A DNA stretch of 64,000 nt from Escherichia coli (GCF_009931435.1 NZ_CP043414.1), one strand, 5' to 3'. Positions 9,969 to 12,900 are shown, numbered from the stretch's first letter. Notes: generated from the letters alone by a model not told the origin. Numbers and translations: made by a program.

Positions 9969-12900
9969 ATGCAGGTCAGCAGAAGGCAGTTCTTTAAGAT
10001 CTGCGCTGGCGGTATGGCAGGCACCACGGCAGCGGCACTGGGTTTTGCACCCAGCGTAGCACTCGCGGAAACCCGGCAGTATAAACTGCTGCGCACCCGC
10101 GAAACCCGTAATACCTGCACCTATTGTTCCGTAGGCTGTGGGCTGTTGATGTACAGCCTCGGTGACGGAGCAAAAAACGCCAAAGCATCTATCTTCCATA
10201 TCGAAGGTGACCCGGATCACCCGGTCAACCGCGGTGCACTTTGTCCGAAAGGCGCTGGCCTGGTGGATTTCATCCACTCCGAAAGCCGTCTGAAGTTTCC
10301 GGAATACCGTGCGCCAGGTTCTGATAAATGGCAGCAAATCAGTTGGGAAGAGGCGTTTGATCGCATTGCCAAACTGATGAAAGAAGACCGCGATGCTAAC
10401 TACATTGCGCAAAACGCCGAAGGCGTGACTGTTAACCGCTGGCTCTCCACCGGGATGCTGTGTGCTTCCGCGTCGAGTAACGAAACCGGCTATTTAACGC
10501 AAAAATTCTCCCGCGCGCTGGGTATGCTCGCGGTCGACAACCAGGCGCGTGTCTGACACGGACCAACGGTAGCAAGTCTTGCTCCAACATTTGGTCGCGG
10601 TGCGATGACCAACCACTGGGTCGACATCAAGAACGCCAACCTCGTCGTGGTGATGGGCGGTAACGCCGCTGAAGCACACCCGGTCGGGTTCCGCTGGGCG
10701 ATGGAAGCCAAAATTCACAACGGCGCGAAGCTGATTGTGATCGATCCTCGCTTTACGCGTACGGCGGCGGTGGCTGACTACTATGCCCCTATTCGTTCCG
10801 GTACTGACATTGCTTTCCTGTCAGGCGTATTGCTGTACCTGCTGAACAATGAAAAATTCAACCGCGAATACACCGAAGCCTATACCAACGCCAGCCTGAT
10901 CGTGCGTGAGGATTACGGCTTTGAAGATGGCCTGTTCACCGGCTACGACGCAGAAAAACGCAAGTACGATAAATCCTCCTGGACTTACGAACTGGACGAA
11001 AACGGCTTCGCCAAACGCGATACCACGCTGCAACATCCGCGCTGCGTGTGGAACTTGCTGAAACAGCACGTTTCCCGTTATACGCCAGATGTGGTTGAAA
11101 ACATCTGTGGTACGCCGAAAGACGCGTTCCTGAAAGTCTGCGAATACATCGCAGAGACCAGTGCTCACGATAAAACTGCCTCGTTCCTTTACGCGCTCGG
11201 CTGGACGCAACACTCCGTTGGTGCGCAGAACATTCGTACGATGGCGATGATCCAGCTACTGCTCGGCAATATGGGGATGGCAGGCGGCGGCGTTAACGCC
11301 CTGCGCGGTCACTCCAACATTCAGGGGCTGACGGACCTGGGGCTGCTGTCGCAGAGCCTGCCAGGTTACATGACGCTGCCAAGCGAGAAGCAGACCGATC
11401 TGCAAACCTACCTTGCCGCCAATACGCCGAAACCGCTGCTGGAAGGCCAGGTTAACTACTGGGGCAATTACCCGAAATTCTTCGTCTCCATGATGAAGGC
11501 CTTCTTTGGTGATAAAGCGACGGCAGAAAACAGCTGGGGCTTTGACTGGTTGCCGAAGTGGGATAAAGGCTACGACGTCCTGCAATACTTCGAGATGATG
11601 AAAGAGGGCAAGGTCAATGGCTATATCTGCCAGGGCTTTAACCCTGTTGCCTCATTCCCGAACAAAAACAAAGTGATCGGTTGTCTGTCGAAACTGAAGT
11701 TCCTCGTCACTATCGACCCGCTGAACACTGAAACCTCTAACTTCTGGCAGAACCACGGTGAGCTGAACGAAGTGGACTCGTCGAAGATCCAGACCGAAGT
11801 GTTCCGTCTGCCATCGACCTGCTTCGCGGAAGAGAACGGTTCAATCGTTAACTCCGGTCGCTGGTTGCAGTGGCACTGGAAAGGTGCGGACGCCCCGGGG
11901 ATTGCGCTGACTGATGGCGAGATCCTCTCCGGTATCTTCCTGCGCTTGCGCAAGATGTACGCCGAACAGGGTGGCGCGAACCCGGACCAGGTGCTGAACA
12001 TGACCTGGAACTACGCCATCCCGCATGAGCCGAAGTCGGAAGAAGTGGCGATGGAGAGCAACGGTAAGGCGCTGGCCGATATTACCGATCCGGCAACCGG
12101 GGCGGTTATCGTCAAGAAAGGCCAACAACTCAGCTCGTTCGCTCAACTGCGCGATGACGGCACCACCTCCTGTGGCTGCTGGATTTTCGCCGGTAGCTGG
12201 ACGCCGGAAGGCAACCAGATGGCGCGCCGTGATAACGCCGATCCGTCTGGCCTCGGTAACACGCTGGGCTGGGCATGGGCATGGCCGCTTAACCGCCGCA
12301 TTCTGTATAACCGCGCCTCCGCAGATCCGCAGGGTAACCCGTGGGATCCGAAGCGTCAGTTGCTGAAATGGGACGGCACCAAATGGACCGGCTGGGATAT
12401 TCCGGACTACAGCGCAGCGCCTCCGGGCAGTGGCGTCGGGCCGTTTATCATGCAGCAGGAAGGCATGGGGCGTCTGTTTGCCCTCGATAAGATGGCGGAA
12501 GGTCCGTTCCCGGAACACTACGAGCCGTTTGAAACGCCGCTGGGAACTAACCCACTGCATCCAAACGTTATCTCGAACCCGGCTGCGCGAATCTTTAAAG
12601 ACGATGCCGAAGCATTGGGTAAAGCCGATAAGTTCCCGTATGTCGGAACCACCTATCGTCTGACCGAGCACTTCCACTACTGGACCAAACACGCGCTGTT
12701 GAATGCGATTTTGCAGCCAGAGCAGTTTGTGGAAATCGGGGAGTCGCTGGCGAATAAACTTGGCATTGCCCAGGGCGATACCGTGAAAGTCTCCTCCAAC
12801 CGTGGCTATATCAAAGCCAAAGCGGTGGTGACCAAACGTATTCGCACGCTGAAAGCGAACGGCAAAGATATCGATACCATCGGTATTCCGATTCACTGGG

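What the first reader, a model, noticed from the sequence alone, without database searches (positions are those of the whole stretch)
10554..10600. Selenocysteine recoding site in fdoG
An in-frame TGA splits the fdoG reading frame into the two ORF-track pieces; FdoG is a known selenoprotein, so this is a UGA-Sec codon rather than a pseudogene. The following ~45 nt contain complementary segments that could form the SECIS stem-loop.
Basis: partly seen in the sequence, partly recalled or inferred. Interest (0 to 1): 0.35.

Follow-up and report, generated by a model that had tools for sequence, protein, structure and literature searches.

The report
Selenocysteine UGA and SECIS in fdoG
The in-frame stop codon in this E. 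coli formate dehydrogenase gene is the well-known signal to insert selenocysteine, followed by the textbook RNA hairpin that directs it, so the finding is correct but ordinary.

Summary
The observation and the interpretation both hold. TGA at 10554-10556 is the only internal stop in a 1016-codon frame (9969-13019). That frame is 99.8% identical in protein to E. coli K-12 FdoG. The TGA aligns with TGA-196 of K-12 fdoG and fdnG and with TGA-140 of fdhF. In the solved FdnG structure (1kqf) a non-standard residue sits at this position.

The RNA after the codon matches Rfam SECIS_3 (RF01989) at 10551-10609 with 84.3 bits against a gathering score of 63. It has the defining features of the E. coli element:
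- an upper stem-loop starting 11 nt after UGA (10568-10585);
- a bulged U17 (10570);
- G23 and U24 in the apical loop (10576-10577).

Hairpin stability alone is not beyond chance, but the specific architecture is. Only 0.5% of synonymous recodings reproduce it, and it is built from rare codons. The longest identical run between fdoG and fdnG (71 nt, against 75% identity overall) lies exactly on it. In 37 distinct Sec-type homologues the upper helix is 95.8% paired, with double changes at 4 of 7 pairs. Cys-encoding homologues lose the structure.

This is already known biology and the interest is low. SelB binding and selenium insertion were not tested.

The parts
9969..13019 (+). fdoG, alpha (catalytic, molybdopterin) subunit of formate dehydrogenase O; 1016 codons including Sec196
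   Evidence: Single frame with one internal TGA. 1014/1016 residues identical to K-12 FdoG. TIGR01553 covers profile 1-194 and 196-1009 on the two pieces. 1kqf FdnG scores 1902 bits.
9969..10067 (+). N-terminal twin-arginine (Tat) signal peptide region, MQVSRRQFFK...
   Evidence: The motif SRRQFFK is read directly from the translation. Its role in Tat export is established knowledge for FdnG/FdoG and was not tested here. The end coordinate is approximate.
10554..10556 (+). UGA codon 196, decoded as selenocysteine
   Evidence: Aligns with TGA196 of K-12 fdoG and fdnG and TGA140 of fdhF. A non-standard residue (X) is at the aligned position in PDB chains 1kqf_A and 1h0h_A.
10551..10609 (+). Full extent of the match to the Rfam SECIS_3 model
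   Evidence: RF01989, 84.3 bits against gathering 63, E 1.6e-19, model 1-59 of 59.
10559..10599 (+). SECIS hairpin (nt 6-46 counted from the U of UGA): lower helix plus upper stem-loop
   Evidence: MFE and centroid structure. 89.2% of cells paired across 37 distinct homologues, against 80.6% in shuffles and at most 57% in slid controls.
10568..10585 (+). Upper stem-loop, the minimal SelB-binding element: GG-U-AGCAA-GUC-UUGCU-CC. Bulged U17 = 10570; loop G23 = 10576 and U24 = 10577. It begins 11 nt after UGA.
   Evidence: Folds alone as ((.(((((...))))))). Positions read directly. Defining features as summarised in PMC8659212. The helix is 95.8% paired, with changes on both sides at 4 of 7 pairs.
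13032..13934 (+). fdoH, beta (Fe-S) subunit (context)
   Evidence: TIGR01582, 478.7 bits.
13931..14566 (+). fdoI, cytochrome b556 gamma subunit (context)
   Evidence: NF007924 scores 453.3 bits (cut-off 341). The FdnI model NF007558 scores only 243.6 (cut-off 339).
14563..15492 (+). fdhE, formate dehydrogenase accessory protein (context)
   Evidence: NF002925, 603.3 bits.
8942..9775 (-). fdhD, accessory sulfurtransferase, divergent from fdoG (context)
   Evidence: TIGR00129, 340 bits. Same arrangement as in K-12.

Best explanation
This is the selenocysteine recoding site of Escherichia coli fdoG. UGA-196 (10554-10556) is read as selenocysteine because the mRNA just downstream folds into a bacterial SECIS hairpin. 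The upper stem-loop (10568-10585) presents the bulged U17 and the loop bases G23 and U24, 11 nt after the codon. By established knowledge of the E. coli system, the C-terminal domain of elongation factor SelB binds this apical element. SelB carries GTP and Sec-tRNA(Sec), the selC product. When the ribosome melts the lower helix and brings UGA into the A site, the tethered SelB delivers Sec-tRNA(Sec) in competition with release factor 2. The inserted Sec196 is a ligand of the molybdenum in the bis-MGD cofactor at the catalytic site, as in FdnG (PDB 1kqf). Shown here: the codon, its homology to known Sec positions, the RNA architecture, its conservation, its covariation, and its loss in Cys homologues. 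Inferred from the literature: SelB binding, the ribosomal mechanism, and actual selenium incorporation in this strain.
For: One internal TGA in an otherwise intact 1016-codon frame. 99.8% protein identity to K-12 FdoG, with the TGA aligned to the Sec codons of fdoG, fdnG and fdhF. The two pieces abut on TIGR01553 at profile positions 194 and 196. X is at the aligned residue in 1kqf_A. RefSeq annotates one uninterrupted CDS with a protein accession across the TGA. Rfam SECIS_3 scores 84.3 bits against 63. The hairpin and upper stem-loop are predicted as the MFE structure. U17, G23, U24 and the 11-nt spacing sit at the published positions. The 66 nt from 6 nt before the TGA are identical to K-12 fdoG and differ from fdnG at one base. 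The longest identical run between fdoG and fdnG is 71 nt at 10551-10621, against 75% identity overall. The 120 nt around the TGA are >=99% identical in 5419 of 5433 E. coli records, while the whole gene is 95-99% in most. Rare codons build the stem, and only 0.5% of synonymous recodings reproduce it. Of 37 distinct Sec-type FdnG/FdoG homologues from many phyla, 33 keep 6/6 upper pairs plus U17, G23 and U24, whereas Cys (TGY) homologues keep 1-4 of 6 pairs and mostly lose G23/U24. Covariation: pair 18-30 is GC 27 / AU 4 / CG 4; pair 19-29 is GC 27 / UG 8; pair 21-27 is AU 20 / CG 14 / GC 1. selC is present in 5424 and selB in 5425 of 5426 complete E. coli genomes.
Against: Nothing contradicts it. 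The limits are these. Hairpin free energy alone is not distinguishable from shuffles or synonymous recodings. The register of the lower helix is ambiguous: the E. coli sequence fits a register with A9-U42 and a bulged G44, while most other lineages fit the Rfam register. The genome-scan pattern required ARV-TGN-HGP, and its first 120 hits are not a random phylogenetic sample, so pair counts count sequences rather than independent events. The window does not contain selA, selB, selC or selD, so their presence in this particular genome is inferred from the species. No experiment on Sec insertion was possible.
Confidence: 0.97

Rival explanations
1. The TGA is a true nonsense codon. On this reading fdoG is a pseudogene, or is split into a 195-aa product and an 804-aa product.
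For: Mechanically the frame is listed as two ORFs, 9969..10556 and 10605..13019.
Against: The same TGA is present in K-12 fdoG, fdnG and fdhF and in 70 FdnG-type homologues across phyla. The surrounding 120 nt are >=99% identical in 5419 of 5433 E. coli records. Downstream of the TGA, 56 of 60 differences from K-12 are at third positions and only 2 amino acids change in the whole protein, which indicates purifying selection. There are no frameshifts. RefSeq annotates one CDS, not a pseudogene. No Shine-Dalgarno-like start context was examined or is needed at 10605.
Confidence: 0.01
2. The hairpin is an accidental by-product of the conserved peptide HGPTVASLAPTFGRG, and its nucleotide conservation between fdoG and fdnG reflects gene conversion rather than selection on RNA structure.
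For: Free energy is not unusual (z -1.63), and 82% of synonymous recodings are at least as stable. A 71-nt identical tract between paralogues could in principle be a conversion tract.
Against: Only 0.5% of synonymous recodings give the specific upper stem with U17, G23 and U24, and the native codons are among the rarest in the operon: GGA 4%, GTA 7%, AGT 8%, CTT 7%, ACA 4%. Homologues with Cys encode nearly the same peptide but lose the pairs. Changes on both sides at 4 of 7 upper-helix pairs across lineages cannot come from conversion within E. coli. The identical tract starts 3 nt before the TGA and covers the Rfam model span.
Confidence: 0.02

Closest known systems
E. coli K-12 fdoG (b3894) Sec196 codon and SECIS
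   Same: Identical over the 66 nt from 6 nt before the TGA, with the same codon number. The protein is 99.8% identical and the operon arrangement is the same.
   Different: 63 mostly synonymous nucleotide differences elsewhere in the gene, and two amino-acid differences: A483 and K689 in the window, T and S in K-12. There are none between 10368 and 10675.
E. coli fdnG (b1474) SECIS, Rfam SECIS_3 (RF01989)
   Same: 71 nt identical (10551-10621), covering the UGA and the whole hairpin. Same Sec196. The solved structure 1kqf has a non-standard residue there.
   Different: It is a paralogous gene: 77% protein and 75% nucleotide identity overall, nitrate-inducible FDH-N, at a different locus.
E. 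coli fdhF SECIS (Sec140), the experimentally dissected prototype; Rfam SECIS_2 (RF01988)
   Same: UGA followed by CAC GG.; an upper stem-loop 11 nt after UGA; GG/CC base; bulged U17; G23 and U24 in the loop.
   Different: The fdhF upper element is 17 nt (UGCA-GGUC-UGCA). Here it is 18 nt (AGCA(A)-GUC-(U)UGCU). The lower helix sequence differs. The window scores only 28.1 bits against gathering 70 on SECIS_2. The proteins are only 22% identical.
Desulfovibrio-type FDH SECIS (loci L048, L110)
   Same: TGA at the homologous codon in a homologous FDH alpha subunit.
   Different: The hairpin is shifted to about nt 20-36 after the U of UGA. C23 replaces G23, and only 1-2 of the 6 E. coli-type upper pairs form.

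Membership tests
Bacterial SECIS, E. coli fdnG/fdoG type (Rfam SECIS_3, RF01989) | Score at or above the family's curated gathering threshold over the full model | tested here: met
   84.3 bits against 63, model 1-59 of 59, E 1.6e-19.
Bacterial SECIS, E. coli fdnG/fdoG type (Rfam SECIS_3, RF01989) | In-frame UGA at the position of the catalytic Sec of a known selenoprotein family | tested here: met
   Aligned with TGA196 of fdoG/fdnG and TGA140 of fdhF. Falls in the profile gap at TIGR01553 position 195. X in 1kqf_A.
Bacterial SECIS, E. coli fdnG/fdoG type (Rfam SECIS_3, RF01989) | Hairpin of about 40 nt immediately 3' of the UGA, inside the coding frame | tested here: met
   MFE structure pairs nt 6-46 after the U of UGA. 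Feature as described in PMC8659212.
Bacterial SECIS, E. coli fdnG/fdoG type (Rfam SECIS_3, RF01989) | Upper stem-loop beginning 11 nt after UGA (nt 15 onward) | tested here: met
   G15 = 10568. The 18-nt element folds alone as ((.(((((...))))))).
Bacterial SECIS, E. coli fdnG/fdoG type (Rfam SECIS_3, RF01989) | Bulged U17 on the 5' side of the upper stem | tested here: met
   T at 10570 is unpaired between G15-G16 and A18 in every predicted structure. It is invariant in 37 of 37 homologues.
Bacterial SECIS, E. coli fdnG/fdoG type (Rfam SECIS_3, RF01989) | G23 and U24 in the apical loop | tested here: met
   G at 10576 and T at 10577 lie in the loop. Among the 37 homologues G23 is >=90% conserved and T24 is invariant.
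Bacterial SECIS, E. coli fdnG/fdoG type (Rfam SECIS_3, RF01989) | Helix supported by covariation among homologues and absent from Cys-encoding homologues | tested here: met
   Upper helix 95.8% paired, with changes on both sides at 4 of 7 pairs. Covariation score 0.253 against a shuffled 0.125 (0 of 500 shuffles reach it) and at most 0.122 in slid controls. Cys homologues keep 1-4 of 6 pairs.
Bacterial SECIS, E. coli fdnG/fdoG type (Rfam SECIS_3, RF01989) | Host carries the trans-acting machinery (tRNA-Sec selC, SelB) | tested here: inconclusive
   These genes are not in the window. At species level selC is in 5424 and selB in 5425 of 5426 complete E. coli genomes. The window's own genome could not be inspected.
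Bacterial SECIS, E. coli fdnG/fdoG type (Rfam SECIS_3, RF01989) | Binds SelB and directs Sec insertion at the UGA | not testable with these tools
   Needs SelB-RNA binding assays, 75Se labelling or mass spectrometry.
FdoG (FDH-O alpha subunit) as opposed to FdnG | Orthology to K-12 FdoG by sequence | tested here: met
   1014/1016 residues identical to FdoG; 782/1016 to FdnG.
FdoG (FDH-O alpha subunit) as opposed to FdnG | Operon context: fdhD divergent, with fdoH, fdoI and fdhE downstream | tested here: met
   NCBIfam assignments of the neighbours. Same order as K-12 4079-4087 kb. The gamma subunit passes the FdoI model (453 bits against 341) but not the FdnI model (243.6 against 339).

The most novel reading that the evidence does not exclude
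The most unusual reading left open is that the enterobacterial fdoG/fdnG SECIS uses a lower-helix register different from the Rfam consensus and from most other lineages: A9-U42 with a bulged G44, built from rare codons. On this reading the 71-nt tract kept identical between the two paralogues would carry an extra function beyond SelB recruitment, for example tuning ribosome pausing or read-through efficiency, or serving as a hot spot for fdoG/fdnG gene conversion. Nothing here requires this.
Probability: 0.04. Interest if true: 0.3.

Novelty: already known. Interest (0 to 1): 0.07.

Why it matters
For annotation it matters only that fdoG is not called a pseudogene or split into two genes, and that residue 196 is translated as U. 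Biologically it is the textbook case of bacterial UGA recoding by a SECIS hairpin and SelB in one of the three E. coli selenoproteins. The sequence is identical to that of K-12, so no new question is opened.

Tried and rejected
1. Thermodynamic stability as a test of the hairpin was rejected as uninformative. The z-score is -1.63 for 47 nt and +0.26 for 71 nt, and 82% of synonymous recodings fold at least as well. Architecture, the covariance model and comparative data were used instead.

It worked with C substituted at position 196.

3. Two Python calls failed because several loci are stored in one FASTA file. This was fixed.

4. Literature searches for primary papers on the fdoG/fdnG SECIS in the held library gave few hits. 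The defining features were taken from the review PMC8659212. The primary papers it cites (Liu et al. 1998; Fourmy et al. 2002) were not read.

5. I tested whether the Rfam register of the lower helix fits better than the MFE register. Neither is clearly better: 82.9% against 83.4% of cells paired. The E. coli sequence itself fits the MFE register.

6. The sub-threshold FdoG-1 thermometer match in the 5' UTR was looked at briefly and not adopted.

7. No sigma-70-like promoter was found by consensus scan in 9700-10700. This was not pursued.

Full report
**Observation**

The window carries TGA at 10554-10556. Translating 9969-13019 in one frame gives 1017 codons with a single internal stop at codon 196 and the terminal stop. 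The second piece is listed from its first ATG, but the frame is open from 10557. The coordinates and the description are therefore correct.

**Identity of the gene**

- The DNA matches 5425 of 5426 complete E. coli genomes over at least 80% of its length. Identity is 95-99% in most and 99.7% in the best.
- Against K-12, the protein is identical to FdoG at 1014 of 1016 residues, to FdnG at 782 of 1016, and about 22% identical to FdhF.
- The neighbours are fdhD (divergent), fdoH, fdoI and fdhE by NCBIfam, in the same order as K-12.
- The gamma subunit passes the FdoI model (453 bits, cut-off 341) but not the FdnI model (243.6, cut-off 339).
- The gene is fdoG, although PGAP labels it 'fdnG' in RefSeq records.

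**Is the TGA the Sec codon?**

- In global alignments codon 196 aligns with TGA-196 of K-12 fdoG and fdnG and with TGA-140 of fdhF, in the motif ARV-U-HGP.
- On the FDH-N alpha model TIGR01553, the upstream piece covers profile positions 1-194 and the downstream piece 196-1009. Exactly one position is missing.
- In the solved FdnG structure 1kqf, and in the D. gigas enzyme 1h0h, the aligned residue is a non-standard residue, printed X.
- RefSeq annotates one uninterrupted CDS with a protein accession and no pseudogene flag.
- There are no frameshifts. Of the 63 nucleotide differences from K-12 fdoG, 59 are at third positions, and only two amino acids differ. Of the 60 differences that lie downstream of the TGA, 56 are at third positions.
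- The region after the TGA is therefore under purifying selection as coding sequence.

**The RNA element**

- Rfam SECIS_3 (RF01989) matches 10551-10609 on the + strand over the full model, at 84.3 bits against a gathering score of 63 (E 1.6e-19). The fdhF-type model SECIS_2 scores only 28.1 against 70.
- The 47 nt from the U of UGA fold as .....((((((((.((.(((((...))))))).....)))))).)). at -13.8 kcal/mol.
- The 18-nt upper element 10568-10585 folds alone as ((.(((((...))))))).
- Counting the U of UGA as 1, the upper stem-loop begins at G15, 11 nt after the codon. U17 (10570) is bulged. G23 and U24 (10576, 10577) lie in the apical loop.
- These are the features listed for the E. coli SECIS in the review PMC8659212: a 17-nt upper stem-loop 11 nt from UGA, with U17, G23 and U24 as the conserved bases, and U17 and G23 contacting SelB.
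- fdhF has the same bases at the same numbers. Its upper element is one nucleotide shorter.

**Is it more than chance?**

Stability is not. The z-score is -1.63 and 9 of 200 shuffles fold as well. With flanks the z-score is +0.26. Among 3000 synonymous recodings of HGPTVASLAPTFGRG drawn from the operon's own codon usage, 82% fold at least as stably, because the preferred codons are more G+C rich.

The specific architecture is beyond chance:

- Only 104 of 20000 recodings (0.5%) give 6/6 upper pairs together with U17, G23 and U24.
- The native sequence achieves this with rare codons: GGA 4% of Gly, GTA 7% of Val, AGT 8% of Ser, CTT 7% of Leu, ACA 4% of Thr.
- fdoG in the window and fdnG of K-12 are 75% identical in nucleotides overall. 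Their longest identical run, 71 nt, lies at 10551-10621, and the next longest are 37 and 36 nt.
- Within E. coli, the 120 nt around the TGA are >=99% identical in 5419 of 5433 records, whereas the whole gene is 95-99% identical in most.

**Comparative test**

After filtering for open frames and context, the loci divided as follows:

| Class | Codon | Loci |
|---|---|---|
| FdnG/FdoG-type | TGA | 70 (37 distinct 47-mers) |
| FdnG/FdoG-type | TGY (Cys) | 4 |
| FdhF-type | TGA | 9 |
| FdhF-type | TGY (Cys) | 10 |
| Chance matches | – | 27 |

- Of the 37 distinct Sec-type FdnG sequences, 33 have 6/6 upper pairs with U17, G23 and U24, and two have 5/6.
- The remaining two are Desulfovibrio-type sequences with a different, shifted hairpin.
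- All eight distinct FdhF-type Sec sequences have 6/6 pairs in their own register.
- The Cys homologues encode very similar peptides but keep only 1-4 of 6 pairs and mostly lose G23 or U24.

On the ungapped alignment A1, the upper helix is 95.8% paired and four of its seven pairs show changes on both sides:

| Pair | Types observed |
|---|---|
| 18-30 | GC 27, AU 4, CG 4 |
| 19-29 | GC 27, UG 8 |
| 21-27 | AU 20, CG 14, GC 1 |

The covariation score is 0.253, against 0.125 in shuffles (0 of 500 reach it) and at most 0.122 when partners are slid.

The lower helix is less well defined. The E. coli sequence fits the MFE register (A9-U42, bulged G44), while most other lineages fit the Rfam register (C9-G41, G8-C42). 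Overall pairing is similar in the two registers, 83.4% against 82.9%. This agrees with the published view that the lower stem is dispensable.

Two caveats apply. The scan pattern fixes part of the 5' arm, and the hits are not a phylogenetically balanced sample.

**Mechanism**

This section rests on established knowledge and is not tested here. SelB, carrying GTP and Sec-tRNA(Sec), binds the apical element. When the ribosome unwinds the lower helix and places UGA in the A site, SelB delivers the tRNA in competition with RF2. Sec196 ligates the molybdenum of the bis-MGD cofactor.

The trans factors are not in the window: there is no tRNA-Sec among its two tRNAs. However, selC is present in 5424 and selB in 5425 of 5426 complete E. 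coli genomes.

**Verdict**

Both the observation and the interpretation are right. The element is identical to that of E. coli K-12 fdoG. It is a curated Rfam family member and a textbook example. Novelty: already known. Interest is low.

Noticed in passing
window 9800-9998 (+): Sub-threshold Rfam match to RF02778 'FdoG-1 5' UTR thermometer' (32 bits against gathering 50, E 4.5e-05). Only the 3' half aligns well, including the Shine-Dalgarno sequence and the start codon. The MFE fold of 9915-9998 pairs the SD AAGGAG (9957-9962) with 9989-9995 in the first codons, but the energy is not unusual (z -0.38)..
   Followed up: partly
window 9969-13019; RefSeq records H1-H22: RefSeq/PGAP names this gene 'fdnG: formate dehydrogenase-N subunit alpha', although it is the fdoG orthologue (99.8% to K-12 FdoG) and its neighbours are named fdoH, fdoI and fdhE. 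This is an annotation naming inconsistency.
   Followed up: yes
window 9969-13019 against K-12 fdoG: Differences from K-12 are uneven. There are 3 in the 585 nt before the TGA (0.5%) and 60 in the 2463 nt after it (2.4%), with none between 10368 and 10675. This could reflect mosaic recombination history or extra constraint near the SECIS.
   Followed up: no
E. coli plasmid records, e.g. NZ_CP159530.1 197013-197129: Seven fdoG/fdnG-like matches in the E. coli collection lie on plasmids. One 298,830-bp record carries an 'fdnG' that is 94% identical over the 120 nt around the TGA.
   Followed up: no
L001 (NZ_AP027764.1), flanks of the best match: The closest fdoG match (99.7%) has a different neighbourhood from K-12. 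An ATP-binding protein and a tetratricopeptide-repeat protein lie beyond fdhD, and a transposase lies beyond yiiE. The window has a 351-aa ORF at 7732-8787 (-), the length of K-12 yiiG; its identity was not checked.
   Followed up: no
window 39788-62289 (-): Other RNA genes in the window: an rrn operon (5S 57186-57301, 23S 57397-60301, 16S 60748-62289) with tRNA-Ala and tRNA-Ile in the spacer; StyR-44 at 60309-60417; Spot 42 at 47999-48117; CsrC at 46748-47001; ES222 at 39788-39895.
   Followed up: no
L048 and L110 (Desulfovibrio-type FDH alpha genes): These keep the TGA at the homologous codon but have a different hairpin, at about nt 20-36 after the U of UGA, with C23 instead of G23. This is a lineage-specific SECIS form that the E. 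coli-type rules do not describe.
   Followed up: partly
L025, L031, L041, L067, L081, L099, L115, L119 (Enterobacterales): Several enterobacterial genomes carry an FdhF-type paralogue with Cys (TGT/TGC) at the Sec position, alongside the Sec-containing fdhF. The Cys copies lack the SECIS pairs.
   Followed up: partly
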